DNA from: a virus | Virus record (IMG/VR): IMGVR_UViG_3300045988_106278 | Location: 1 to 64,000 of that record | Length of the DNA: 64,000 nt | Direction: 5' to 3' (one strand) | Shown here: in pieces, positions 170 through 60,311 of the stretch | How positions within the stretch are numbered: the first letter of the stretch is position 1 | Layout of the letters: every line of letters begins with the position of its first letter | Position numbers and translations under genes: made by a program | Notes under the pieces: model-generated | What the model was told of the DNA's origin: nothing | Seen by the model: the letters and a program-made list of their open reading frames with translations, nothing else | The model's database searches: none

Positions 170-806
170 AATTTTTGAAGAATTAGATCGTCAAGCAGAT
201 AAATGGGAACCTACTGCGGCAGCTATATCTTTAGGTAGTTTAGGACTAGGTGCAGGTATAAGTACTACCGCTGTAGGTGCTCCTATAGGAGGAATTATTG
301 CTGGAGTAGGCTAGTTACCTTCTTTAGTTATAGATGGGTATCAAGCTGGTAGAGGATGGTACAAGACTTTTAAAGAATCCCCAAGTAATTTTGGAAATGC
401 CGTATGGAATACTTTGGAAACTGGGGCAGATATATTAGGAGCTAAATTTGCATCAGCTTTAGCTAAGGGAGGTTCTAATTTTCTTAGATCTAGCGTATAC
501 AAACCTGGTTATTACCCTAAACATCATTCTCCAAGAGTTAATGCTATGCGAAAGAGACAAGTCGACGTAATATTAAATTAGCAGAAAAAAGAAGCTACTG
601 AAAAATTGGCTAAAAGAGGAGTTCGATCAAGTCAAGGTTCATACTTTACATCTAAATTAAACTAGGAATTAAATAAACCTTATTTAGAGTAGGTAGCTAA
701 AAGAAATGCTACAATAACAAACGATGTTACTAAATTAAGTCCTAAAATATAGTTACCTATTTAGATTATACCTAATATTATTGATATACATGCCAGAAAT
801 AAATAA
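162..806 (+). CDS. Glycine-zipper-rich hypothetical protein; contains about 6 in-frame TAG codons (amber-recoded), stop TAA
   Basis: The frame is continuous from ATG 162 to TAA 804-806 only if TAG is read as sense. It encodes ...AAISLGSLGLGAGISTTAVGAPIGGIIAGVG(TAG)LPSLVIDGYQAGRGWYK.... It is not in the standard ORF track because of the TAGs. Confidence 0.6.
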
Positions 807-832
807 TATTTATAAATTTAATAAAAATAATA

Positions 833-952
833 ATGGATACATATACTTTAACAGAAAAGATTGAGGAACTACAAAGATTTTTAGATTTTGTAAATGAAAG
901 AGATAAATAGTTATGGAATAAATATTTAAAGAAATATGAAACAGGTGATTAA
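833..952 (+). CDS. Small hypothetical protein (39 aa) with one in-frame TAG
   Basis: ATG 833 to TAA 950-952 in frame 2, reading MDTYTLTEKIEELQRFLDFVNERDK(TAG)LWNKYLKKYETGD. Confidence 0.3.
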
Positions 953-1047
953 AACTGGAAAGGATTACTATGGAAAATAGAACACCCAGTAGAAATAGTA
1001 TATTCCGAAATTACTCTATATTCTTTATTAAAACTATGTAAGAAGAT

Positions 1048-1263
1048 ATGAAATAGTTTTTAATTAAATTAATAACAGCACATACTGGAATAAGTAGTAA
1101 AAGAGTATGTGGAATATTAGGATGGATAGTAAGTTTAATTATTCTAATATACTGTTCTATTAGTTAGATACAAGCTCCTGATATGATAGATACAGTTTTA
1201 TATTGTTGTATGGGATTACTAGGAATTGATAGTATAACTAGTATATGGAAAAATAAAGTATAA
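1048..1263 (+). CDS. Holin-like small membrane protein (71 aa) with two in-frame TAG codons
   Basis: MK(TAG)FLIKLITAHTGISSKRVCGILGWIVSLIILIYCSIS(TAG)IQAPDMIDTVLYCCMGLLGIDSITSIWKNKV. It has two hydrophobic helices and a charged C-terminus, and ends at TAA 1261-1263. Confidence 0.55.
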
Positions 1264-1265
1264 AT

Positions 1266-2381
1266 ATGCCAATAGTAGATGAAAGTAAACAAAATAAAGG
1301 AGTAAATAATAATACTCGGAATAAATAGATGGCTATAGATATGGAATATTATAATAGACTAAATCATCTTAGATTTAAATCTCCATATCTTGGTGCTAAA
1401 TATTAGTAGAGAGTTATTCCAGTTAGAACTTTAAATGGGGTACAAGATGTATTTGTAGATAATAGAGGGACTATAAAATAGGGAGGACATACTCATTCTA
1501 AATTATATAATTATAGTAATAAGAATAGAACCCATCCTATAAAAGGAGCTTATGCTAGAGAAGTAGATAGTTGGAATAATAATACTAGTCCTATTAAAGC
1601 ATTAGTTAATTCAGGAATAGGTTATGCTTTAGCTCCAGCAGCTTAGGCAGTATATGATTATACTAAAGGAGCTTTAGATATATCTAAGAATCCGACTAAA
1701 GCTAGTAATTATTTAGTAATGCTTCCTGTAATGGGATATGCTGTAAAAGCTCCTTTAAAACGTGGAGTAGAAGTAGCTATGAGAACTTCTAATAATGCTA
1801 ATCCTATAGAAGACATAGTATATAATATGCATAAAGCAAGTCCTAAAAAGCATGCTGGAGTATTGTCTTATATATCAACTGGTGTGGGTTACAATACCTA
1901 TGCTCCTGAAGCATATACTGGATTTTAGAAAGCAGCTAAAGGTAATGATATGATTGATGCTTATTTATATAATCCTTCTTATGGAGTAAAGAAAATAAAT
2001 GTAGATTATGGTCCACATGAGAATTATATAAGAAAGATATATCCATATAAAGATATTCCTGTATATGAAAATACTGAAACTTTAGATTTCTTTACTAAGA
2101 AACCTATGTAGAAAGCTTCTAATATAACTAATAAAACTCCTTGGAAAGGTGCTAATAATAATCTAGACTTTGGAGATACTGCTGGACATTTAGTTTAGGA
2201 AGGAACATCTAATGGTAAGAAAGTATATAGAGCACAAGATATTTGGAAGTTTAATCCTGATGAATATAAGTAGAAATGGAGTTCATATGATTTAGACAGT
2301 AAAGCTGTATTAGGATTAAAAATATTAGATAAGTTAGGAACTCCAGTAATAATAATAAGAACACCATGGCTATATAGGTAA
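1266..2381 (+). CDS. Hypothetical late protein (about 371 aa) with about 10 in-frame TAG codons
   Basis: Frame 0 is continuous from ATG 1266 to TAA 2379-2381 only with TAG as sense. The ORF-track fragment 1719..1928 is one inter-TAG piece of it. Confidence 0.6.
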
Positions 2382-3502
2382 TTACTGACAATGATTCAAT
2401 ATATGATTATTGGTATGAAGATGGGTATTTGTATGGTAGAAGAAAATCAAATAAAATCCCTTTTAGAATTAATTCTGATAAAGCTAATAAAATAATATAT
2501 CCATAGGTTTAGGCTAAAGGAGTAGATCCTGCTAAACCAACATCTACCTTAGTATACCATCCTGCAAAATATGAAGAAATGCCCACTGCTAAAAAAATAT
2601 CTATTCCTAAATAGGAAGAAGGAACAATATGGGAACGTGGTAAATAGTTGATTAATTTAGTAGGAAATGGATTAAGTAGAAAACTATAGTTATTTTTTGA
2701 TTCAGAACCTGAGCATACTAGTAAAAGAATTAAAATTTCTAATAAAAAAGTAACTAAAAATAAGAGGAGAGAAAATTTAGAAATAGAAATATCTCCAAAT
2801 AGTTATACTATAAATGATACTACTAAAATAAACTCTAGAAGATATCGTATACCAGAATCCATAAATTTAACAAAGCATACTTTTGGTTATAGAAATAGAG
2901 GTGATTATACTCCTATAAATAGTGTAGCAGCTCCTATTACTGCTTTTTCTAATTTCAAATCTAAAGAAAGCATATCTCCTAATAATTAGAATTATATAGG
3001 TATAGATTCTATTGGTAAATTTGTTTTTGGTAAATATTCAGATATTCCTAATGGAAGTATGATTTCTCCAACATTTAAAAATACAGTTACTGGTTTCAAA
3101 ACAGATTCTAAAGATAATGTATTATTCATGGAAAGTAATTCTAATGGTTCTAGAAAAAGTCCTATATTAAATGCCATAGTAAATGGTAAATCAGTAAATA
3201 ACAGACTAAATTTCTTAGCTAATAATAATAGAACTGATGAATATGGTTCTATAGCTGGAGGAAGAATAATTATATAGGCGGGTAAAGAAGTTCGTTTAGT
3301 TTCCGGAAGTATAGATAATATTAGAGATGAGATAGAAGCTATGAAATCTAGAAACAATGTTAAAACAGTAGATTTATATACTTTAGATAATGGTACTTAT
3401 CATTCAGGATTAAGAACTTTTGATAAAATATTTACTAGAGATGACTTACTAAAATATGATGCTCAAAATACGGGCGGAGGAAATTTTTTATATATAAAAT
3501 AA
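2366..3502 (+). CDS. Hypothetical late protein (about 378 aa) with about 9 in-frame TAG codons
   Basis: Frame 2 runs from ATG 2366, which overlaps the previous gene's end, to TAA 3500-3502. ORF-track fragment 3059..3277 lies inside it. Confidence 0.55.
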
Positions 3503-3556: not shown

Positions 3557-3744
3557 AATTAATAAATATCCATCCCCAAATATTTATTAATAAGTAACAG
3601 ATAATTCATTTAACTTATCACAAAAATCAAGAGTTAATTGATTATCTTGTAAATCATTATCTCCTATAGTATCAATAATCTACTGTACTTCATTAAGTAC
3701 TTTGTTCATTTTAGACTTTAAGTCTTTTAATTCTTTGTTAGTCA

Positions 3745-4101: not shown

Positions 4102-4173
4102 TTCTCCCACAAGGATTCGAACCCTGGCTAAAAGATTTAGAGTCTTCTGTGCTAACCATTACACCATAGGAGA
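4102..4173 (-). tRNA. Amber suppressor tRNA, anticodon CUA (reads UAG); probably Gln identity
   Basis: Hand fold: acceptor TCTCCTA/TGGGAGA with one G-U pair. Anticodon stem is GAAGA/TCTTT with loop CTCTAAA (U33, CTA, A37). T arm is CAGGG-TTCGAAT-CCTTG; length 72 nt. U1-A72 and a D arm almost identical to the co-encoded tRNA-Gln(TTG) suggest Gln identity. Confidence 0.8.
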
Positions 4174-23179: not shown

Positions 23180-23612
23180 TCTAATTTAGGACTCTTTTAA
23201 GTATGGGGCTAAACTAGTATTTGATTGTCTAGGAGATAAGAAACACAGCAAGACAACTTGGATAGACAAGTAAAAAATTAATTGGCGAAGTAAATAACAC
23301 TTCCGCTTCTTACGCTATTGCAGCCTGAGAAGCCGAGCAGCACTTGCTTAGGAACAGAAAGGTGCACTATTCTTTCATTTCTTATAAGTTCTCTGTATAC
23401 TTTAGGAACAGAGTGGTGGAAGTTGACAATGTTAATCTTGTCAACCCTAACAGACAAGGATAGTCTTTAAAACCTATGCTGTAAGAACGTTTTGATGCAA
23501 ATAGGCAAGACGACGGGGCAGTACCGTCTAGCTCCACTAGTTCATAGAACTGTTTTTATTATTATTTGTTTTTAATCCCTGGGCTATTATAGTTCAGGGA
23601 TTTTTGTTTAAT
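23180..23612 (+). ncRNA. Candidate structured non-coding RNA (~430 nt; GC-rich island, ORF-less) ending in a rho-independent terminator
   Basis: No ORF. Direct repeats TTAGGAACAGA(A/G)(A/T)GGTG sit at about 23347 and 23400. Hairpins are GTTGACAA...TTGTCAAC and GACGG..CCGTC. Terminator ccctgg..caggg + T-run at 23577-23610. Confidence 0.35.
23577..23610 (+). terminator. Rho-independent terminator
   Basis: ccctgggctattatagttcaggg followed by atttttgttt. Confidence 0.6.
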
Positions 23613-23729: not shown

Positions 23730-25215
23730 ATGGGTAAACAAATTTGGTTGCAAGATGGCAACGTTTTTAGTCAGGGTAGTGCGACAACAGTATCTCATCC
23801 TGAAGGATTACCGAAAGGTATTTATGAAGTAAAAGTCTCAATGACTGGATTTTACTTAAGTAAAATCGCTGAGTCTTTTACGTTTGATTACAAACTGTAT
23901 GGTCTAAACCAAAAATTTATTGATTATGTCTTAAGGACATATGAGAACACTACAGGAAATTTAGGTGTTCTGCTAGATGGAATCAAAGGAACTGGTAAAA
24001 TTTAAGCAAATTCAGTAAGCTTAAATTTTTAAAAATTTTATATTTATTTGGATTAAAATTTTTAAAACTTGCCGTTCTAAACAGGAATGTTTAGAATTAT
24101 TAGCGGGTGAAAACGGGGAAGGCTGTGATGCTAATCCCGTGGTAAATGAAGATAGTAACGAATCTTCATCACTGTAACGCGTAGAAGTTGAAACTCTTAT
24201 AAGAGAATATAATACTTCCAAGAGCGCCCGCTCTCCCAATCATTTGAATGGAGAAAAAGGTACGCTGAGCTATAACAAATAAGAAGTTATAGAAATATAG
24301 ATAAAAAGCTATATGATAACAATACTGAAAACAGTTACCGCAAAGGAACTTTGTAATCGTTTACAGCTTCCTGTAGTCTTAGTACAATCAATGGGCAGTG
24401 ATACTAATAGTAAATTAATAAAATATTTATCTACATCTATTGATTTTGACTGTATCTTCTTCTTTGATGAATATGAGAAAGAATTTAAAAATTCTTCTGA
24501 TGTTCTTTCTTTCATGGATGGTACTTATAACTCTATTTATCGTAAGGTATTTTTACTTACTACTAATGAGTTAGATGTAGACCCAAATCTTCTTGGTAGA
24601 CCTTCTAGAATAAGATATAAAAAGTCTTTCAGTAATCTTTCTGAGGAAGTTACTAGAGAGATTCTTAATGATATCTTGGAAGATAAAACTGCCATAGAAA
24701 AGGTTATAGAGTTAACTCATTCTATGAATATTATTACTATAGACTTAATTAAAGCTATAGCAACTGAAATTAATATTCATGGAGTAGAAGTTCTTCCTAA
24801 TATTAAAGAAACCTTTAATATTGAATTCTCTAGATTTACTTATTTGTATAGAGAAGTACAAATCAGACATTGTGACTTGGAATTTACTCCTGAAAATATA
24901 AATAATATATTAAAAGCTTTTTATAAGTTTAAAGAAATTAAAAAGAAAGATTGGGAGAAACATACTAGTGAAGAAAGCAAATTCTATGATGAATGGTCTA
25001 CTAAGTTCAATGAGGATTATGGTTCCACTATTGAGGATAAAGAGTTAAAATATCTGGAACCTGGAGATTATTTTGAGGATGATCGTATATTGATGGTAAG
25101 TATTAAAGAAAAATATGTAGTAACTATGACTGATTATGGGAATATTAGAATATATATAATTAATAGTTGCTATTCTACAAGTAAAGCTACAGGTCTTGTA
25201 AATTACAAATTATAA
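23730..25215 (+). CDS. AAA+ ATPase interrupted by an ORF-less ~307-nt intron-like insertion (exon 1 23730-24001, exon 2 24309-25215)
   Basis: Exon 1 ends ...LLDGIKGTGK (Walker A GxxxxGK) and then hits a stop. Exon 2 begins ...ITILKTVTAKEL... with IFFFDEYE (Walker B) a little further on. Removing 307 nt joins the frames exactly. The insertion is GC-rich and structured, preceded by U and ending in G. Confidence 0.55.
24002..24308 (+). other. Putative self-splicing (group I-type) intron in the AAA+ ATPase gene
   Basis: 307 nt with no ORF. GC-rich core with a long-range GCGGG (24103)/CCCGC (24231) pairing and hairpins ttctaaaca..gtttagaa and tgaagat..atcttca. Boundaries are U|...G|. Confidence 0.45.
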
Positions 25216-34562: not shown

Positions 34563-35062
34563 ACTTAGTTTGGTTGAAATTAATAAAGCGAATCTTAACC
34601 CATAAGTATTATGTTGCTAAATATTGCTTTCAAATAGGATTATATTGGCAAGGTATTACTCATGATTTGTCTAAATTTAGTTTTACAGAATTTTCAAGAG
34701 CTATTAAGTATTGGGATGATAATATAAGTTCATTAGCGAATGAATGTAGAATATTAGGATATAGTCAAACATTCCTTCACCATAGAGGAAGAAATCCTCA
34801 TCATTATGAATATTGGATACATTCCTTAGATAATGGAGGAATTCCTGCTAAAATGCCTAAAAAATATGTTCTAGAACTTATATGTGATTATTTAGCAGCA
34901 GCTAAAACATATGGAGCTGACCCTAGAAGAGAATATACATGGTGGCTTAAACAACAGCCTCATATGAAAATCCACAAAAAAACTAAGAGTTATATAACTG
35001 AAGTGTTTTATAAATATAGTATAGGTTTAACATTAAAAGAATCAATTAATGGAAATTATTAA
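34559..35062 (+). CDS. Hypothetical protein, possible HD-family phosphohydrolase (167 aa)
   Basis: The spacing of His/Asp residues (LTHKY ... GITHDLSKF ... FLHHRGRNPHHYEYW ... D) resembles an HD motif, weakly. Sits directly upstream of the NAD+ cluster. Confidence 0.3.
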   Translation: MNLVWLKLIKRILTHKYYVAKYCFQIGLYWQGITHDLSKFSFTEFSRAIKYWDDNISSLANECRILGYSQTFLHHRGRNPHHYEYWIHSLDNGGIPAKMPKKYVLELICDYLAAAKTYGADPRREYTWWLKQQPHMKIHKKTKSYITEVFYKYSIGLTLKESINGNY

Positions 35063-35891
35063 TGCAACTGATGGCTATAAGCTTGGTCATCATCGTATGT
35101 ACCCAAAGGGTACACAAATGGTCTATAGTAACTGGACTCCTAGAAGTAATCGTTACTTCCCAGAAGCTATAGAAGGTTCTGTAGTATTTGGTATTCAGTA
35201 CTTTGTAAAGAAGTATTTGATAGAGGAATTTAACAAATGGTTTGCTCTTCCTAAGGAAGAAGCTATTAAGCAATTTGCTTATCGTGTAGGTAACTTTGTA
35301 GACCTTAACCAGGTTGGGACAAAGCATATTGAAGAACTCTATGATTTAGGATATCTTCCTATTGAAATTAAAGCTCTTCCTGAAGGTTCTATCTGTCCTA
35401 TAAGAGTACCTATGATGACTATTAAGAACACTCTCCCGGACTTCTTTTGGTTGACTAATTACTTGGAAACTTTAATTAGTTGTACTCTATGGCTTCCTTG
35501 TACTTCTGCAACAAGTGCTCGTCTTTATAAGAAGAGACTTATGGAACATGCTAGAAAGACTGGATTCCCAGAGGAAGTAAATCTAGGGTTCTCTTGTCAC
35601 GATTTCTCAATGAGAGGTATGGCAGGACTTGATGCTGCTATTATCTCCGGTATGGCTCATATGACCTCATTCTGTGGTAGTGAAACAATTCCTGCTATTG
35701 AAGCAGTAGAGCATTATTACGATGCAAATGTTACTGAAGAACTTGTAGCTGCAACTGTCCCGGCTTCGGAACATTCAGTGGCTTGCTCTACTATTAGTGA
35801 TTTTGAAGATAATGTAGAAGAAATAATCTTAGATGATTTTGGTAAATTAATTGGATATATTGATAAAAATGGAGACAAAAATTTGTTCTAA
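35049..35891 (+). CDS. nadV: Nicotinamide phosphoribosyltransferase-like (NAMPT/Namat), N-terminal fragment of a split gene
   Basis: TDGYKLGHHRMYPKGT and ...VPASEHSV are NAMPT family motifs. It ends ...FGKLIGYIDKNGDKNLF*, while the rest of the family domain is in 36458..37300. Confidence 0.75.
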   Translation: MEIINATDGYKLGHHRMYPKGTQMVYSNWTPRSNRYFPEAIEGSVVFGIQYFVKKYLIEEFNKWFALPKEEAIKQFAYRVGNFVDLNQVGTKHIEELYDLGYLPIEIKALPEGSICPIRVPMMTIKNTLPDFFWLTNYLETLISCTLWLPCTSATSARLYKKRLMEHARKTGFPEEVNLGFSCHDFSMRGMAGLDAAIISGMAHMTSFCGSETIPAIEAVEHYYDANVTEELVAATVPASEHSVACSTISDFEDNVEEIILDDFGKLIGYIDKNGDKNLF

Positions 35892-36480
35892 TTGTGGTTA
35901 GGAAAAACCTATTTCAGAATTTCCTAAGTGTAAAAGAAATAAAGATGGGTTAGATACTCATTGTAAAGAATGTAGAAATGCTAAAAATAAAGCATATAGA
36001 GAGGCTAATAAAGATAAAGTTAAAGTAGCTAGACATAAATATTATGAAGAAAATAAAGAGCATATATTAGCACAAAAGAAAATTTATGCAGATGCTCATA
36101 AAGAAGAAAAAGCTGCTTATGACAAAATTTATAGACAAGAAAATAAAGATAAATTACGGGAGCAAAAAAGAATATGGGAAAGAAATTCTTTAAAGTTTAA
36201 AATTCGTAATAACCTCAGACGTAGAGTGGCACATACTATGGAATTAATCGGATGTTCTATAGAATTTTTAAAAGAATATATTGCAAACAAATTTACTGAA
36301 GGAATGTCCTGGGATAATTATGGTGAATGGCATTTAGATCATATAAGACCATGTTCCTCTTTTGATTTATCTGATCCTATATAGCAAAAAGAGTGTTTCT
36401 GTTATAAAAATTTACAGCCTTTATGGGCTATTGATAATTTGAAAAAAGCGTATAAATATGAAAATTCAAAAAGCGTCTGA
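35869..36480 (+). CDS. HNH homing endonuclease (203 codons, two in-frame TAG), inserted between and overlapping both NAMPT halves
   Basis: METKICSNCG(TAG)EKPISEFPKCKRNKDGLDTHCKEC... has a Zn-finger-like N-terminus. GEWHLDHIRPCSSFDLSDPI(TAG)QKECFCYKNLQPLWAIDNLKK is an HNH motif. Ends at TGA 36478-36480. Missed by the ORF track because of the TAGs. Confidence 0.7.
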
Positions 36481-37300
36481 AGAGGACAAAAAACTTATTG
36501 GAGAATTATTGTCAATTAAAAGATTGATAAATGAATTATATCCTATTGGAATTGTATCTATAGTTAGTGATACTTATGATTTTTGGAGAGTGATAGAACG
36601 TATTCTCCCTCGTCTGAAAAAAGACATTATGAAGCGTGATGGTCGAGTAGTAATTCGTCCTGATAGTGGTGACCCAGTAGATATTATTTGTGGTCTTCGT
36701 ACAAATCCTCATTACCACACTGCAATGAAGGAAGGCAAGTACTATTGTGATTTCAATCCATTTATGGATGATGATGAAAGTCATTATGTAGAAGTATCTG
36801 AAGGTCAGTATTATGGAGCATATTATATGCTAGGTAAAATCTTTGGATGGAATACTACTGTAAATGATTATCGTTATCCAAGCACCAAGGTTGGGTTGCT
36901 CTATGGAGATTCTATCACTCTAGAGCGTCAGCGTGATATCTATGCTCGATTAGAGAACGCTCATATGGCAGCTTGTAATCTTGTTCTTGGTATTGGATCT
37001 TATACTTATCAGTTTAAGAGTCGTGATTCTTTGGGATTCGCAGTTAAAGCAACTGCTTGTATAATCAATGGAAAGCTTATAGAAATCTATAAGCATCCAA
37101 AGACTGATGATGGAACAAAGAACTCTCTCAAAGGTCTTATTAGAATTGAAGAAGAGAATGGTAAGTATGTCGCTTATGACCAGCAGACTAAGGATGCAGA
37201 ACTGCAAGGTTGTCTTAAAACAGTCTTTGTAGATGGAGAATTAGTAAGAGAATATTCTCTTTCTGAGATTCGTGAACGTGTAAATTCAACATTAGTATGA
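36458..37300 (+). CDS. nadV: Nicotinamide phosphoribosyltransferase-like (NAMPT/Namat), C-terminal fragment of a split gene
   Basis: SIVSDTYDFW and VIRPDSGDPVD (the RPDSGD motif) are NAMPT hallmarks. It carries its own ATG, which overlaps the 3' end of the HNH gene. Confidence 0.75.
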   Translation: MKIQKASEEDKKLIGELLSIKRLINELYPIGIVSIVSDTYDFWRVIERILPRLKKDIMKRDGRVVIRPDSGDPVDIICGLRTNPHYHTAMKEGKYYCDFNPFMDDDESHYVEVSEGQYYGAYYMLGKIFGWNTTVNDYRYPSTKVGLLYGDSITLERQRDIYARLENAHMAACNLVLGIGSYTYQFKSRDSLGFAVKATACIINGKLIEIYKHPKTDDGTKNSLKGLIRIEEENGKYVAYDQQTKDAELQGCLKTVFVDGELVREYSLSEIRERVNSTLV

Positions 37301-44617: not shown

Positions 44618-45229
44618 ATGTTTGATTTAAACATTGATGAAGAAATAACAATTTTAGAAAAATATAATATTACTCCTACTGAATTATTTGTTATTAAAGC
44701 TATTAATGCTTATATAGAAGATTATTCAGAAGATTATCTTCGTAGGTATTTGGCTATTGATAAAAAGTATGTAGGAAGTTTTATAGATATACTTAAATCT
44801 TTACAAGATAAAGGTCTTATCCTTAAAAGTTATAAAATTATTCCAGGAATGAAATTAGTTCCTGAAGAGATACCATTTAATAAAAACTTCCTAAAATGTT
44901 TAGCTAAGAGTTCCTTTGAAATGGGAAAAGAACTTAGAGAACATTATCCTAGATTTAGAAATATTAATGGATGCTTAACTAGTATGCTAGGTGTTTCTAA
45001 AAAGTTTAATAGTCTTGAAGATGCTTATAGAACTTATGGAAAGAAAATCCATTGGAATGAAGAACTTCATAAAAAGATTATTGATTTACTAGATTGGGAA
45101 GCTAATACTGATAATGGTATTATTAATTATAGCTTAGCTACATTTATTGTAGATGAAAAATGGGAAGACCTTGAAGCTTTAAAGAATGGAGATTCAGGTA
45201 TGAATTATAATTCAATCACCACTCTGTGA
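44618..45229 (+). CDS. Hypothetical protein (203 aa)
   Basis: ORF track. Confidence 0.5.
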   Translation: MFDLNIDEEITILEKYNITPTELFVIKAINAYIEDYSEDYLRRYLAIDKKYVGSFIDILKSLQDKGLILKSYKIIPGMKLVPEEIPFNKNFLKCLAKSSFEMGKELREHYPRFRNINGCLTSMLGVSKKFNSLEDAYRTYGKKIHWNEELHKKIIDLLDWEANTDNGIINYSLATFIVDEKWEDLEALKNGDSGMNYNSITTL

Positions 45230-46308
45230 GTTTAGAAAGTTTTAAACGTTCGATAGAGCTTGGTAGACAAGGATTTAATCAAGGATTTAGTATGGGTCTT
45301 CCTAAATTGGAAGAATTAATAGGAGGTATTACTAAAAGTACCATGACTCTTTTATTTGCGAGTTCAGGACAAGGTAAAAGTTCATGTGTATTATATTCTT
45401 ACATATATGCTCCTTTAAAAGAACATTTAGAAGATAATAAATTAAAAATTATTTTCTTTGCTCTTGAAATGAAAGAAGACTTTATTATAGCTAAATTATT
45501 AAGTACCTATTTATATGATACCTATCATATTGTTGTAACTGCTAAACAAATGTTATCTATAGGTAAAGATTATATTTTACCTGACGATTTATATGAGTAT
45601 GTACAACTAGGATATGATTGGCTAGAAAAAGTATATAAAGTACTAACTATATACGAAGGCTCTTTTAATTCTGATAGGCTCATAAAAGTTACAATGGAAG
45701 AGCTTAAAAAAGAAGGAGAATTTACAGAGAATAAGTATATTCCGAAAGACCCTGAAAAAGTAATACTTTCAGTAACTGACCATGTTGGATTGATTCAACC
45801 ATCCAATGGAAGGAACAGAAAAGGAGAAATTGATGATTATACTAATAAATTAGTTATCATTAGAAATAAAACAGGATTATCTCCAATTATTGTTATGCAA
45901 TCCAATAGAGCAGTGGCTAACATGGAAAGAAAAAAGAATGAAGCTTTCATGGAGCCAATGGTGGAGGATATTAAGGAAACATCCACTGTTTCAGAGAATT
46001 CTGAAATTATTTTAGCTGTATATAATCCTCAAGTTGATAAAAGAACAACTTATAGAGGTTACCAAGTTAAAGAAATGGGTTATAGGTTTCGAAGTATTCT
46101 TGTACTAAAGTCAAGATATGGAGAAAACCAAGTAGCTGATTGCTGTTTCTTTGACGGAGCAGTAAATAAGTGGATGGAAATGCCTAAGCCAGAAGAAATC
46201 TTTGATTATTCTAGATATCGAGCTACAAATAACAGTTCAACAGATAATACAATAAAGAATGAAGATAAAGATGAAAAAGTGAAAAATAAATTAGACTATA
46301 GTTTATGA
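45226..46308 (+). CDS. DnaB-like replicative DNA helicase (RecA-fold C-terminal domain)
   Basis: Walker A LLFASSGQGKSS. FALEMKEDFIIAKLLS resembles the DnaB FSLEM...RLL motif. IILAVYNPQV is Walker B-like. Confidence 0.6.
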   Translation: MSLESFKRSIELGRQGFNQGFSMGLPKLEELIGGITKSTMTLLFASSGQGKSSCVLYSYIYAPLKEHLEDNKLKIIFFALEMKEDFIIAKLLSTYLYDTYHIVVTAKQMLSIGKDYILPDDLYEYVQLGYDWLEKVYKVLTIYEGSFNSDRLIKVTMEELKKEGEFTENKYIPKDPEKVILSVTDHVGLIQPSNGRNRKGEIDDYTNKLVIIRNKTGLSPIIVMQSNRAVANMERKKNEAFMEPMVEDIKETSTVSENSEIILAVYNPQVDKRTTYRGYQVKEMGYRFRSILVLKSRYGENQVADCCFFDGAVNKWMEMPKPEEIFDYSRYRATNNSSTDNTIKNEDKDEKVKNKLDYSL

Positions 46309-57023: not shown

Positions 57024-60000
57024 ATGTTATTTATGGTAATAAAGAGAGACGGAATTAAAGAAGAGTTTAACAGAAACAAAATTAGAGATGCTGTACTAAA
57101 GGCTTTTGGAATTACCCAAAATTCTAGTAAAACAATGGACGAAGATATTTACAGAGCAGTTACTGAGATAACTAATTCTGTAGTAGAGACTGAAGATCAA
57201 TCTATTGAGGATATTCAAGACCAAATTGAGGAACTCCTAATGGATTTAGGGTATCATGACGTAGCTAAAAAATATATTCTATATCGTAAAGAACGTGAAG
57301 ATATTAGAAATCATGCTACTAGGGATATTAAATTTATTCATAATTTTGTAAAGTCTGATAATACTGCTAATGCTACTATTGATGATAATAGTAATGTTGG
57401 AACTAAAGGTATTGGAGTATTAAACGCTGAAATACATAAAGTCGATAATAAACTTACTAATACAGAATGGTGGGAAAGTTTTGTAAAGAAGAGAGACCCT
57501 AACTTTAATATAAAAGTTATGAGGAATGACTTTAAAACTATTTTGTATCCTCATGACTCATCTTCTCAAGTAGGGGAACCATATTGTATGGCAACTTCTA
57601 TGTATCCTTTCTTGTTGTTTGGATTAGAGAAATTAGGAGGTAAATCAGCTGTTCCAAAGAACCTTGATTCATTCTGTGGTATTTATGTAAATTTAAACTT
57701 TGCATTAGCCTCTGAAATTAAAGGAGCAGTAGCTACTCCTGAGTTTCTGATGTATATGGATTATTTCTGTAGAAAAGAATGGGGAAATAATTATTATCTC
57801 AAACCAAGTGTAAAAATAACTACAGATTATTGTATAAAACAGAAAACTATTGGCAGTCAAATTGATCAATATTTCCAACAGGTAACTTATTCAATTAATC
57901 AAATAGCAGGATCTAGAGGAATGCAGTCTCCATTTACAAATTTTTCATTCTTTGATAAATATTTCTTTGAAGGTATGTTTGGAGAATTTGTATTTCCAGA
58001 TGGAACAAAGCCAGAATGGAATTCTACTAATTGGTTACAAAGACGTTATTTACATTGGTTAAATCAAGAAAGATTAAAATGTATTTTAACATTTCCTGTA
58101 TGTAGTTATGCCTGCTTAACAGATAAGGAAGGGAATTTTAAAGATTTAGATACTTTCCATTTTATATGCAGTGAATATGCTCAAGGAAATTCTTTCTTTA
58201 CTTATCTGTCTCGTAGTGTAGATAGTTTAAGTTCATGTTGCTTTTCTAAAGATACTAAGTTTTTATGGAAATCTAGCACTTCTGGAGTACATCTAACTAC
58301 CTTTGAAGAATTTAAAAATCTTCCATATAAAAATATGAAAGAGAATTTTAAAGTATTTCACAATGGCTCTTGGGTAGCTGGCAAAGTTATAGATTTACCT
58401 AATCGTCCTATGTATAAAGTTACCACTTATAATAATAAAGAGTTTATTATGACTGATAATCATATAAATGTAACTTTACAAGGAGAAAAACCAACAGAAC
58501 AGTTAACTATTAATGATTACTTATTATTCAATACTTCTAAGTTAAGTGCTATTCCAGATAATAATGAACATTTAACTTACGCCCAAGGTTATGTAATTGG
58601 ATCATTTTTAGGTGATGGCTCTTTTAGTTCTGAAATAAATGGAGTTATCTATGATATTAATTTATCCCAAAATGAACAAAAATATAAACGTTCTAAATTT
58701 TATTGGAATCTCGCATTAAAACAAATGGGATATGAACCTAACGTGGTTTTAAAAGAAGTAGTAAATAATGTTTATCCATTAAGAGTATCTAATAAAAATT
58801 TAGTTGCTTTTATTCAAAAATGGACTAATTGGTATAGAGGAACTTATGCTTATAATAAGAAATTAAACATGAATTGTCTTCTTCAATCTGTAAAATTTAG
58901 AGAAGGTATACTACAAGGATGGTATGATACTGATGGGGGAAATTCTAACAGATGCTACACGACTTCTCCTGAATTAGCAGAAAATATGGAAGCCTTAATA
59001 ACTTCTTTAGGAATGCAAAGCATTATTAATATATCAGATAGAACAGATGAAGAAGTTATAATACGCGGGGAACATTATAAAAGAAATTACCCATTATATT
59101 GTGTAAGATGGTATGAAGATGCAAATCATAGAGCTAATAAAGACGAGGAACATAGTTGGATAAAATATAATAATGGAATATACTTTAAAATAAAATCTAT
59201 CGAACCATATGATTACAATGATAGAGTATATTGTATAGAATGTAAAAATGCTTCTGAACCATATTTTACATTACCAAGTGGATTAATTACTCATAATTGT
59301 CGTCTTCAAAATGCCGTACAAGAAAATACATTTAATACTACTAATGGTCAAATAGGTATAATGACTGGTAGTAAAAATGTTATTACTCTTGATTTAAATA
59401 GAATTATTCAAGATTGGCAGCATACTTGGTCTGATTATAAAGACCATATTGATGTTGATACCAATAAATGTTGTTTCCCAGTAGATTGGATTACACATAA
59501 AGACTTCCAAGAAGGAATTAAGAAATATATAGAAAATATTCTTGAAAGAGTTTATTTGTATCAGTATGCTTATAACGACTTAATGCATTGGTGCAAAGAT
59601 CATCATTTATATGCTGCTTATGATGCTGGTTTTATTAATCTTGATAAACAGTATTTAACTATTGGAATTAATGGCTTAAATCAGGCTGCTGAATACTTAG
59701 GAATGGAATGTAATAATAATATTTATTATAAGACATTCTGTAGATTAATATTCAGTACTATAAAAGAACAGAATAAGAAACATAAAACTAAAACAGCTCA
59801 ATTTAATACTGAACAAGTACCCGCAGAAAGTGCTTCAGTAAAACTTTATAATAGAGATAAAGCTGATGGCTATTGGATTCCTACAGATACTAATCTGTAT
59901 GCTAGTTATATATTTAAACCTAATGATACACATATAAGTATACTTGATAAAATTATACTTCATAGTTCTGAATTCGCTGCTGATGAATTAGATGGAGGTT

Positions 60001-60311
60001 CTGCTTGTCATCTTAATTTATCTGAACATTTGAGTCAGAAACAATATGAGTATTTACTTAAATTTATGGCTAAAGTAGGTTGTAAATATGCTACTTTTAA
60101 TATTCCTAATTGTGAATGTGAAGAGTGTCATTTTATAGCAAAACAACCGTTTAGTAAATGTCCTAAATGTGGTAGTACTCATGTAAGTCTATGGGATAGA
60201 ATTATCGGCTATCTTACAAAGATTTCTAACTGGAGTGCTGCTAGACAACTAGAAGGTAGTACTAGAAGTAGAAAGAATGAATTAGAAATTAATATAGAAT
60301 TAGCACAATGA
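57024..60311 (+). CDS. nrdD: Anaerobic ribonucleoside-triphosphate reductase NrdD (class III) containing a LAGLIDADG intein
   Basis: N-terminal ATP cone (VIKRDGIKEEFNRNKIRDAV). C-terminal Zn ribbon CECEECHF...CPKCGS and glycyl-radical region DRIIGYL. The 1095-aa length is explained by an internal intein of about 353 aa. Confidence 0.75.
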   Translation: MLFMVIKRDGIKEEFNRNKIRDAVLKAFGITQNSSKTMDEDIYRAVTEITNSVVETEDQSIEDIQDQIEELLMDLGYHDVAKKYILYRKEREDIRNHATRDIKFIHNFVKSDNTANATIDDNSNVGTKGIGVLNAEIHKVDNKLTNTEWWESFVKKRDPNFNIKVMRNDFKTILYPHDSSSQVGEPYCMATSMYPFLLFGLEKLGGKSAVPKNLDSFCGIYVNLNFALASEIKGAVATPEFLMYMDYFCRKEWGNNYYLKPSVKITTDYCIKQKTIGSQIDQYFQQVTYSINQIAGSRGMQSPFTNFSFFDKYFFEGMFGEFVFPDGTKPEWNSTNWLQRRYLHWLNQERLKCILTFPVCSYACLTDKEGNFKDLDTFHFICSEYAQGNSFFTYLSRSVDSLSSCCFSKDTKFLWKSSTSGVHLTTFEEFKNLPYKNMKENFKVFHNGSWVAGKVIDLPNRPMYKVTTYNNKEFIMTDNHINVTLQGEKPTEQLTINDYLLFNTSKLSAIPDNNEHLTYAQGYVIGSFLGDGSFSSEINGVIYDINLSQNEQKYKRSKFYWNLALKQMGYEPNVVLKEVVNNVYPLRVSNKNLVAFIQKWTNWYRGTYAYNKKLNMNCLLQSVKFREGILQGWYDTDGGNSNRCYTTSPELAENMEALITSLGMQSIINISDRTDEEVIIRGEHYKRNYPLYCVRWYEDANHRANKDEEHSWIKYNNGIYFKIKSIEPYDYNDRVYCIECKNASEPYFTLPSGLITHNCRLQNAVQENTFNTTNGQIGIMTGSKNVITLDLNRIIQDWQHTWSDYKDHIDVDTNKCCFPVDWITHKDFQEGIKKYIENILERVYLYQYAYNDLMHWCKDHHLYAAYDAGFINLDKQYLTIGINGLNQAAEYLGMECNNNIYYKTFCRLIFSTIKEQNKKHKTKTAQFNTEQVPAESASVKLYNRDKADGYWIPTDTNLYASYIFKPNDTHISILDKIILHSSEFAADELDGGSACHLNLSEHLSQKQYEYLLKFMAKVGCKYATFNIPNCECEECHFIAKQPFSKCPKCGSTHVSLWDRIIGYLTKISNWSAARQLEGSTRSRKNELEINIELAQ
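58236..59297 (+). mobile_element. Intein with LAGLIDADG homing-endonuclease domain inside nrdD
   Basis: Begins ...SLSSC|CFSKDTKF (Cys1) and ends GLITHN|C (His-Asn plus the +1 Cys). Two LAGLIDADG motifs, YVIGSFLGDGSF and ILQGWYDTDGG. The start is ambiguous by one codon because of the CC dipeptide. Confidence 0.65.

What the first reader, a model, noticed from the sequence alone, without database searches (positions are those of the whole stretch)
23730..25215. AAA+ ATPase gene split between Walker A and Walker B by a 307-nt ORF-less, GC-rich, intron-like insertion
ORF 23730-24005 ends exactly after a Walker A motif (GIKGTGK-I-stop). ORF 24313-25215 resumes with the helix expected after Walker A (ITILKTVTAKEL), followed by Walker B (IFFFDEYE). 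Deleting 24002-24308 fuses them in frame. The insert is structured, starts after a U and ends with G. This points to a small self-splicing group I-type intron. Together with the tRNA-Leu intron, the nrdD intein and the HNH gene, the window is unusually rich in selfish elements.
Basis: partly seen in the sequence, partly recalled or inferred. Interest (0 to 1): 0.65.

Follow-up and report, generated by a model that had tools for sequence, protein, structure and literature searches.

The report
Self-splicing intron splitting a phage ATPase gene
A 331-base group I intron that has lost its homing-endonuclease gene interrupts the ATP-binding loop of a gut-phage AAA+ ATPase gene; it is real and well supported, but it belongs to a kind of element already known to be common in gut phages.

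Summary
The split gene is real, but the borders given are wrong. More than 100 uninterrupted homologues (384 aa, 90-97% identical) read GIKGTGKTV[VT]AKEL. The excised segment is therefore 23997-24327 (331 nt), not 24002-24308. It follows a U (GGU) and ends in G.

The insert folds as a group I intron: P1-P10, a P3/P7 pseudoknot and an extra P7.1 hairpin. On a MAFFT alignment with about 70%-identical copies from other phages, 97.9% of cells pair. 35 of 56 pairs show compensatory changes (0 of 500 shuffles).

Sister alleles carry a LAGLIDADG endonuclease gene in the P1 loop; the window copy is a deletion derivative. The spliced reading frame is intact in all nine intron-containing alleles (dN/dS 0.22-0.53).

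The same intron family sits after the GGU glycine codon of Walker A in four other ATPase genes. These are a second AAA+ gene of this phage lineage, a crAss-like AAA ATPase, a crAss-like DnaB-type helicase and a staphylococcal-type phage terminase.

Rfam RF00028 does not detect this family at all.

Group I introns are already known to be dense in gut phages, so this is a new member of a known kind. Splicing itself is inferred, not shown.

The parts
23730..23996 (+). Exon 1 of the AAA+ ATPase gene (89 codons, ends ...GIKGTG with GGT; U23996 is the last exon base)
   Evidence: Alignment to intron-less alleles L002-L004 and to proteins P0001 etc.
23997..24327 (+). Group I intron, 331 nt, with no endonuclease gene
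   Evidence: Junction fixed by uninterrupted homologues; fold and covariation
24328..25215 (+). Exon 2 (295 codons plus TAA), starting AAA ACA = K-T of Walker A and containing Walker B IFFFDE
23993..23996 (+). P1, exon strand UGGU; U23996 forms the U-G wobble at the 5' splice site
   Evidence: The 5' exon ends GGU in every context found. Intron-less alleles of the second AAA+ gene in close relatives have GGA here, occupied ones GGT.
23997..24066 (+). A+T-rich P1 loop; about 24054-24058 is the scar where sister alleles carry a ~976-nt LAGLIDADG gene insert
24067..24074 (+). Internal guide: GCCG (24071-24074) pairs with the exon UGGU; the UU before it can pair with intron bases 1-2 (P1 extension) or exon 2 bases 1-2 (P10)
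   Evidence: GCCG is kept in cr118_1, cr6_1, Lak-A1 and MT835539
24075..24096 (+). P2 hairpin, 9 bp with a GNRA loop (GGAA)
   Evidence: Four compensatory pairs against L008; 8 of 9 pairs covary family-wide
24102..24109 (+). P3 5' strand (pairs with 24225-24232)
   Evidence: 6 of 7 pairs with compensatory changes
24113..24140 (+). P4-P5 with AA/AA internal loop (J4/5, J5/4)
   Evidence: Compensatory changes in P4 and P5
24141..24173 (+). P6/P6a
24177..24183 (+). P7 5' strand with bulged C24178; G24179-C24265 is the candidate guanosine-binding pair (pairs with 24261-24266)
   Evidence: 2 of 6 pairs covary and the G-C pair is invariant in 11 sequences
24184..24218 (+). P7.1/P7.1a, an extra hairpin between P7 and P3' (a subgroup IA-like feature)
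   Evidence: 4 of 5 pairs covary
24225..24232 (+). P3 3' strand
24233..24253 (+). P8 hairpin
   Evidence: 3 of 4 pairs covary
24254..24266 (+). J8/7 (AAAAAGG) and P7 3' strand (UACGCU)
24270..24314 (+). P9 (24270-24292) and P9.1 (24295-24314; loop AUAAAAAG conserved)
24315..24327 (+). 3' tail GAUAACAAUACUG ending in the terminal G (24327)
   Evidence: The tail G[AU]UAA[CU]A... and the final G are conserved in all 11 aligned sequences

Best explanation
Window 23997-24327 is a group I self-splicing intron with a subgroup IA-like architecture. It is inserted between the Gly (GGU) and Lys codons of the Walker A motif of a 384-aa phage AAA+ ATPase gene. After transcription, the exon end UGGU pairs with the guide GCCG (P1). 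The P3-P9 core binds guanosine at P7, and two transesterifications join 23996 to 24328, restoring GIKGTGKTVTAKEL. The element originally carried a LAGLIDADG homing endonuclease gene in its P1 loop. That enzyme would cut intron-less alleles and copy the intron in by repair (homing). The window copy has lost this gene by deletion and is now an immobile but still spliced passenger. Shown: the insertion and its exact junction, the RNA fold with covariation, endonuclease-bearing and empty sister alleles, and selection on the exons. Inferred: catalysis and splicing in vivo, endonuclease activity, and the direction of spread.
For: (1) More than 100 uninterrupted homologues of 384 aa read GKTV[VT]AKEL. 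Intron-less DNA alleles exist (L002-L004, L037-L045), including some with exon flanks identical to the occupied alleles (L039, L043: GGT AAAACAGTTACT). (2) U at -1 and a terminal G are present in every copy. (3) Group I topology including the P3/P7 pseudoknot. Among close copies 98.7% of cells pair and 7 pairs are compensatory. On a MAFFT alignment with ~70%-identical copies from cr118_1, cr6_1, Lak-A1, phi116 and others, 97.9% pair and 35 of 56 pairs are compensatory. This gives 0 of 500 shuffles, and slid controls give 30-44% paired. Hand-anchored helices give 418 of 420 canonical pairs. (4) Sister alleles L001, L005, L006, L029 and L030 carry a LAGLIDADG ORF in the P1 loop (Pfam LAGLIDADG_3 E 4e-11; phrog_4645 E 2e-55). 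The endonuclease gene was lost at least twice. (5) All nine intron-containing alleles keep an intact spliced ORF of 383-384 codons, with dN/dS 0.22-0.53. (6) Distribution is sporadic: 4 of about 15 close relatives and none of about 25 distant ones in IMG/VR. (7) 6 of the 13 differences between the window and the intron-less allele L002 fall in the 12 nt just 3' of the site (P 2e-9). (8) The same family sits at the same Walker A codon boundary in four other ATPase genes.
Against: Rfam RF00028 gives no match, even at E<=10 on the insert alone. No RNA data were available, so splicing is not observed. P1 is short (4 bp plus 2) and its loop is 70 nt. P10 has only 2 bp in the window copy. The opposite strand folds about as well by energy alone. 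Two related alleles (L001, L025) carry deletions that remove a splice site, so the gene can decay.
Confidence: 0.9

Rival explanations
1. A dead intron. The insert derives from a group I intron but no longer splices, so in this phage the ATPase gene is a pseudogene on its way to loss.
For: The endonuclease gene is gone. Alleles L001 and L025 carry deletions through a splice site. P10 is weak in the window copy.
Against: Both exons are intact in all nine occupied alleles, with dN/dS 0.22-0.53, including one allele with 81 substitutions. Substitutions in the ribozyme helices among close copies are almost all pair-preserving (98.7% paired). The window core has no helix-breaking change.
Confidence: 0.05
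2. A non-intron insertion (miniature transposon with a 4-nt target duplication) or a very long translational bypass. The first 4 nt of the insert repeat the first 4 nt of exon 2, like a target-site duplication or matched take-off and landing codons as in T4 gene 60.
For: AAAA/AAAA in the window, AAGA/AAGA in L008 and L030, AUUG/AUUG in Lak-A1. A stop codon follows shortly after the putative take-off codon.
Against: The repeat is absent or partial in cr118_1 (AAUA/AAAU), cr6_1 (AAUA/AAGA) and phi116 (UGUA/AAAU). The sequence shows no terminal inverted repeats. The gap is 331 nt, against about 50 nt for known bypasses (own knowledge). The conserved pseudoknotted fold and the LAGLIDADG gene are unexplained by either idea.
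Confidence: 0.02
3. Two separate genes, or a naturally split ATPase whose two halves assemble after translation.
For: Two ORFs are callable, and the second has an ATG at 24313.
Against: Homologues are continuous. The split would fall inside GxxGxGK|T. The residues MITIL encoded from the ATG have no counterpart in any homologue.
Confidence: 0.01
4. Another class of intervening element: a group II intron, an intein or an assembly artefact.
For: None specific.
Against: No Rfam group II or other ribozyme match. At 331 nt it is too short for a group II intron (own knowledge). Stops occur in the exon reading frame, so it is not an intein. An identical structure appears in independent assemblies from IMG/VR, ENA, JGI and GenBank.
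Confidence: 0.01

Closest known systems
Group I introns of crAss-like phages (Yutin et al. 2021, PMC7886860), including the intron with an 'intron-encoded endonuclease' in the AAA ATPase gene of crAssphage cr6_1 (NC_055894, Suoliviridae)
   Same: The cr6_1 ATPase is a homologue of the window gene (32% identity, E 9e-18). It is split at the identical point (GTKGTG|KTV) by a copy of the same intron family (about 70% identical core) carrying a LAGLIDADG gene. Yutin et al. list 'ATP_43b' among Delta-group genes with group I introns; whether that is this gene was not checked.
   Different: The window copy has no endonuclease gene, so a search by endonuclease domains, as used in that paper, would miss it. 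The host is a different, unnamed human-gut phage lineage with contigs of about 170-185 kb. Its contig accessions are not in that paper's supplements.
Phage subgroup IA group I introns (T4 td/nrdB/nrdD, Staphylococcus phage Twort orf142) - from own knowledge
   Same: Small self-splicing introns in conserved phage genes; an extra hairpin between P7 and P3'; optional homing endonuclease genes in peripheral loops; sporadic distribution among close relatives.
   Different: There is no sequence-level match through Rfam RF00028. The endonuclease is LAGLIDADG in the P1 loop, not GIY-YIG or HNH in P6/P9 as in T4. The subgroup was not assigned with subgroup-specific models.
Group I introns of Jug jumbo gut phages (PMC12880540)
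   Same: Gut Bacteroidota-type phages with many short group I introns, on average about 206 nt, splitting essential genes. Splicing was confirmed by metatranscriptome reads for 37 of 76 introns.
   Different: Different phages (360-402 kb). Those introns were found with subgroup covariance models that could not be run here. No link to this particular family was tested.
Inteins clustered in ATPase P-loops (Novikova et al. 2016, PMC4760082)
   Same: A selfish element whose insertion point is the most conserved part of the ATP-binding loop, allowing it to occupy non-orthologous ATPases.
   Different: Those elements splice at the protein level; this one is an RNA intron. I have seen only the abstract of that paper.

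Membership tests
Group I intron | Removal of the element restores a continuous conserved gene; empty alleles exist | tested here: met
   More than 100 uninterrupted 384-aa homologues; empty DNA alleles with identical flanks
Group I intron | 5' exon ends in U, paired as a U-G wobble with an internal guide sequence (P1) | tested here: met
   UGGU (23993-23996) with GCCG (24071-24074). GGU and GCCG are kept in all contexts. Close-relative empty alleles of the second AAA+ gene have GGA, occupied ones GGT. Pairing is inferred from sequence; no covariation is possible because both strands are invariant.
Group I intron | The intron's last nucleotide is G | tested here: met
   G24327; the last base is G in all 11 aligned sequences
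Group I intron | Conserved core P3-P4-P5-P6-P7-P8 with a P3/P7 pseudoknot, supported by covariation | tested here: met
   97.9% of cells paired, 35 of 56 pairs compensatory, 0 of 500 shuffles, slid controls 30-44%. P3 6 of 7 and P7 2 of 6 pairs compensatory.
Group I intron | Guanosine-binding site: an invariant G-C pair in P7 next to a bulged nucleotide | tested here: met
   G24179-C24265 is invariant in 11 sequences, preceded by a bulged C or A. Binding itself is not testable here.
Group I intron | Match to the curated covariance model (Rfam RF00028) | tested here: not met
   No hit at E<=10 on 23900-24420 or at E<=1 on the whole window. The model also misses this family's copy in L103 while scoring 77 bits on a neighbouring intron. 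This points to limited model coverage, not to absence of the fold.
Group I intron | Guanosine-dependent self-splicing; ligated exons in RNA | not testable with these tools
   No RNA data. Indirect support: spliced ORF intact and dN/dS below 1 in nine occupied alleles.
Mobile group I intron (homing) | Homing endonuclease ORF in a peripheral loop | tested here: not met
   Absent from the window copy. Present in sister alleles (LAGLIDADG_3 E 4e-11). The window keeps only the deletion scar at about 24054-24058.
Group I subgroup IA | Extra pairing(s) P7.1/P7.2 between P7 and P3' | tested here: inconclusive
   One extended hairpin (24184-24218) with covariation. Subgroup-specific models (GISSD; Selles Vidal 2025) are not available here.
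Group II intron | Six-domain structure with domain V, usually over 600 nt, often a reverse transcriptase ORF | tested here: not met
   331 nt, no Rfam group II match
Intein | In-frame ORF with Hint domain, spliced at protein level | tested here: not met
   TAA at 24003 and further stops in the exon frame
Programmed translational bypass (T4 gene 60 type) | Matched take-off and landing codons across a short (~50 nt) gap | tested here: not met
   Codons match in the window (AAA/AAA) but not in cr118_1, cr6_1 or phi116. The gap is 331 nt.

The most novel reading that the evidence does not exclude
One group I intron lineage, invisible to the Rfam model, has a fixed guide (GCCG) that needs only ...GGU in the exon. 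It is paired with fast-diverging LAGLIDADG endonucleases (56% identity between two copies whose ribozyme cores are about 98% identical). This lineage specialises in the Gly-Lys codon boundary of Walker A. It has thereby jumped between non-homologous ATPase genes: two AAA+ genes about 55 kb apart in one genome, a DnaB-type helicase and a terminase. The hosts span crAss-like, unclassified gut and staphylococcal-type phages. The cluster of six substitutions right at the site in many empty alleles (AAGACGGTCGTT) would then be an endonuclease-resistant variant.
Probability: 0.5. Interest if true: 0.55.

Novelty: new member of a known kind. Interest (0 to 1): 0.35.

Why it matters
For annotation. 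This gene would be called as two fragments, a 91-aa orphan and a 300-aa ATPase with a false start. The standard Rfam model gives no warning, and searches for endonuclease domains cannot see endonuclease-free copies. The same family splits a helicase, a terminase and capsid genes in deposited phage genomes. There the flanking pieces are annotated as separate genes (cr118_1, phi116).

For biology. The locus holds a nearly complete homing cycle in one population: empty sites, possibly resistant sites, occupied sites with the endonuclease, occupied sites without it, and decaying alleles. It also suggests that the P-loop is a recurrent landing site for RNA introns as well as for inteins.

Tried and rejected
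- Rfam at gathering and E-value thresholds on the insert, the whole window and related loci gave no group I hit for this family.
- The metagenome scan with the 19-mer GCGGGTGAAAACGGGGAAG returned 26 loci. Eighteen were unrelated G+C-rich coding DNA.
- L010 was a chance 19-mer match in an unrelated phage gene.
- blastn of the intron against the window found no second copy, only A+T-rich low-complexity matches.
- I did not build a covariance model. The core is about 270 positions, beyond the likely calibration limit, and the MAFFT alignment already gave decisive pair counts.
- My first bracket string for the count of structure pairs ignored the P3/P7 pseudoknot and mis-paired three helices. It was redone with separate brackets.
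- I first read L008 as a different phage, because only the intron matched at the DNA level. Searches showed that both AAA+ genes lie on the same contigs, so the two hosts are two genes of one lineage.
- I considered that the changed exon flank in L008 (GTPGTG) proves transfer from the first AAA+ gene. I rejected this as unproven, because distant homologues of the second gene also read PGTG.
- The PDB sequence search found nothing for the endonuclease and only a weak p97-like hit for the ATPase.
- The contig accessions were not found in the supplements of Yutin et al., so the phage could not be placed in their groups.

Full report
**1. The observation**

The two ORFs are as described. ORF 23730-24005 ends GIKGTGKI-TAA. 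ORF 24313-25215 begins MITILKTVTAKEL and contains IFFFDEYE. Pfam AAA (PF00004) matches the second ORF (E 4.8e-6) and matches a fusion better (E 3.3e-8). The intervening stretch is richer in G+C than its surroundings (0.38-0.43 against about 0.2-0.3). It folds well beyond shuffled controls (z -5.5). The opposite strand does the same (z -6.1), so energy alone says nothing about strand or function.

**2. The true junction**

A search of 5.8 billion proteins returned more than 100 uninterrupted homologues of 384 aa at 90-97% identity. They read GIKGTGKTVVAKEL or GIKGTGKTVTAKEL. Intron-less DNA alleles (L002-L004) align to the window up to 23998 and again from 24340.

The excised segment is therefore 23997-24327 (331 nt). 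Exon 1 ends GGT and exon 2 starts AAA ACA GTT. Both the insert and exon 2 begin AAAA, so the junction could be shifted by 0-4 nt. Only the zero shift gives U at -1 and G at the last position, here and in the second host gene.

The ATG at 24313 lies inside the intron.

**3. What the insert is**

*Rfam.* Rfam finds nothing: no family at E<=10 on 23900-24420 apart from two chance snoRNA-like hits, and no group I hit anywhere in the window at E<=1.

*Structure.* By hand the sequence fits group I topology:
- P1: exon UGGU 23993-96 with GCCG 24071-74
- P2: 24075-96, GGAA loop
- P3: 24102-09 with 24225-32
- P4-P5: 24113-40, with AA/AA internal loops
- P6/P6a: 24141-73
- P7: 24177 and 24179-83 with 24261-66, C24178 bulged
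- P7.1: an extra hairpin, 24184-218
- P8: 24233-53
- P9: 24270-92
- P9.1: 24295-314
- terminal G: 24327

The energy-based centroid independently recovers P2-P6, P7.1, P8, P9 and P9.1, and encloses P4-P6 in P3.

*Covariation among close copies.* On 11 close copies (alignment A4), 98.7% of cells pair. Seven pairs carry compensatory double changes (P2 four, P4, P5 and P9.1 one each). None of 500 shuffles reaches this, and slid controls give 33-48% paired.

*Covariation among distant copies.* A sensitive blastn of the core against 50,697 phage records found copies about 70% identical over the whole core. They occur in crAss-like phages cr118_1 and cr6_1, Prevotella phage Lak-A1, Mammaliicoccus phage phi116, Clostridium phage phiCP39-O and others. 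On a MAFFT alignment of these with the window (A5, not fitted to any structure), 97.9% of cells pair. 35 of 56 pairs have compensatory changes, against a shuffled mean of 19.7 (0 of 500). Slid controls give 30-44% paired and 5-10 such pairs. P3 covaries at 6 of 7 pairs and P7 at 2 of 6, so the pseudoknot that defines the group I core is supported. The G-C pair of P7 next to the bulge is invariant. A separate count on hand-anchored helices gave 418 of 420 canonical pairs.

*Why Rfam fails.* RF00028 hits other introns in one of these loci (77 bits in L103) but not this family's copy 400 nt away. The negative Rfam result reflects the model's coverage.

**4. Mobility**

- *Endonuclease-bearing alleles.* Sister alleles at 96-98% identity (GenBank MT835492 = L001; L005, L006, L007, L029) carry about 976 nt more at window position ~24054, in the P1 loop. 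This encodes a two-domain LAGLIDADG protein (YWLGFIFADGY, IRGYFDGDG). It matches Pfam LAGLIDADG_3 at E 4e-11 and phrog_4645 'endonuclease' at E 2e-55.
- *Loss of the endonuclease gene.* Copies without it arose at least twice. The window/L009 type and L013 have different deletion end points, and L013 still keeps the last codons of the gene. The window copy is thus a deletion derivative.
- *Distribution.* In IMG/VR the intron occupies 4 of about 15 close relatives of the gene and none of about 25 more distant ones.
- *Two kinds of empty site.* One has flanks identical to the occupied alleles (GGT AAAACAGTTACT; L039, L043), and more distant relatives have a similar sequence. The commoner one reads GGT AAGACGGTCGTT. 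Between the window and L002, 6 of the 13 substitutions in 1152 nt fall in those 12 nt (P 2e-9). This fits either co-conversion or a site variant resistant to the endonuclease. I cannot tell which.

**5. Is it still spliced?**

This cannot be observed here. All nine occupied alleles retain an intact spliced ORF of 383-384 codons. They differ from the window with dN/dS 0.22-0.53, including one with 81 substitutions. Substitutions in the ribozyme helices are nearly all pair-preserving. Both facts argue that the intron is removed and the protein is made. Against this, two alleles carry deletions through a splice site: L001 lacks window 24218-24347, and L025 lacks the exon 1 end and most of the endonuclease gene. 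The gene can therefore decay.

**6. Other hosts of the same family**

| Locus | Host gene | Split point | Notes |
|---|---|---|---|
| L008, L028, L030 | Second AAA+ gene (BLASTP E 0.85 against the first) | FGTPGTG\|KTSL or YGIAGSG\|KTSL | About 55 kb from the first gene on the same contigs. On five contigs carrying both genes, only one of the two is occupied. |
| cr6_1 | AAA ATPase, homologue of the window gene | GTKGTG\|KTV | RefSeq calls the ORF inside 'intron-encoded endonuclease' |
| cr118_1 | DnaB_C helicase | AGISGSG\|KSS | Endonuclease-free copy; the two pieces are annotated as separate 'DNA helicase' genes |
| phi116 | Large terminase | ASRGLG\|KSF | |

In close relatives, empty alleles of the second AAA+ gene have GGA at the site and occupied ones have GGT. 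That is the U which P1 requires.

Other family members sit in non-P-loop genes (Lak-A1, capsid genes). In Lak-A1 the exon still ends UGGU.

The endonucleases of the two AAA+ copies are only 56% identical, while the ribozyme cores are about 98% identical. The element is therefore a mosaic.

**7. An unexplained detail**

The first 4 nt of the insert equal the first 4 nt of exon 2 in the window (AAAA), in L008 and L030 (AAGA) and in Lak-A1 (AUUG). This does not hold in cr118_1, cr6_1 or phi116. In L008 both could pair with UCUU just 5' of the guide (P1 extension and P10). In the window only two pairs are possible. A target-site duplication or matched bypass codons are formally possible readings. 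Neither fits the relatives, the fold or the endonuclease.

**8. Comparison with what is known**

Yutin et al. [quoted passage not shown] Their Delta-group list of interrupted genes includes 'ATP_43b'. The Jug phage study (PMC12880540) found 18.5 short group I introns per genome and confirmed splicing for 37 of 76 by metatranscriptomics. Inteins are known to cluster in ATPase P-loops (PMC4760082).

This element is therefore a new member of a known kind. The mildly new points are three. The family escapes Rfam. Endonuclease-free copies are invisible to domain-based surveys. And one family recurs at the Walker A Gly-Lys boundary of several non-homologous ATPases.

**9. Verdict**

Confidence that this is a group I intron that is (or recently was) spliced is about 0.9. 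Interest is moderate to low (0.35).

Noticed in passing
window 23205-23539 (+): Full-length but sub-threshold match to tmRNA (RF00023, 31.8 bits against gathering 47, E 4.7e-9, model 1-374), in a G+C-richer stretch without long ORFs just upstream of the ATPase gene. ARAGORN did not call it. Possibly a phage-encoded tmRNA-like gene.
   Followed up: no
window 4102-4173 (-) and 11396-11480 (+); L006 and L030 endonuclease ORFs: tRNAs with anticodons CTA (reads UAG) and TTA (reads UAA). The LAGLIDADG ORFs in relatives contain one or two in-frame TAG codons, end in TAA, and match Pfam and PHROG profiles across the TAG. TAG is therefore probably read as sense in this lineage. Of + strand ORFs of at least 150 codons in the window, 23 end in TAA, 9 in TGA and 4 in TAG.
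   Followed up: partly
window 35049-35891, 35892-36457, 36458-37300 (+): The first 280-aa ORF matches PHROG nicotinamide phosphoribosyltransferase profiles only over their N-terminal part. A second, non-overlapping 280-aa ORF follows; I did not scan it. The ~570 nt between them encode an HNH-type endonuclease-like sequence (WHLDHIRPCS...NLQPLWAIDN) with an in-frame TAG.
   Followed up: partly
window 45226-46308 (+): This 360-aa ORF matches only the C-terminal part (333-612 of 621) of the DnaB-like helicase profile phrog_19. In crAss-like cr118_1 the DnaB-type gene is split by this intron family. Whether the window helicase is also split was not checked.
   Followed up: no
L001 (MT835492.1) 3640-3660; L025: Two alleles of the same gene have deletions that destroy it. 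L001 lacks window 24218-24347 (3' third of the intron plus 20 nt of exon 2, between ACTT repeats). L025 joins mid exon 1 to the middle of the endonuclease gene.
   Followed up: partly
L097 (NC_055872 cr118_1) 1511-2834; L099 (PV389079 phi116) 517-3491: Deposited annotations call the exon pieces as separate genes. In cr118_1 these are two 'DNA helicase' CDS. In phi116 they are a 90-aa hypothetical protein plus a 504-aa hypothetical protein that together form the large terminase. The intron between them is unannotated.
   Followed up: yes
window 14025-14097 (+): ARAGORN reports a tRNA with a two-base anticodon ('ta', type unknown), while Rfam scores it as a normal tRNA (52.5 bits).
   Followed up: no
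Because Rfam also misses the intron studied here, this is not evidence of absence. The 'nrdD intein' (57024-60311, 1095 aa, matches the NrdD profile over 97-1079) was not examined.
   Followed up: no
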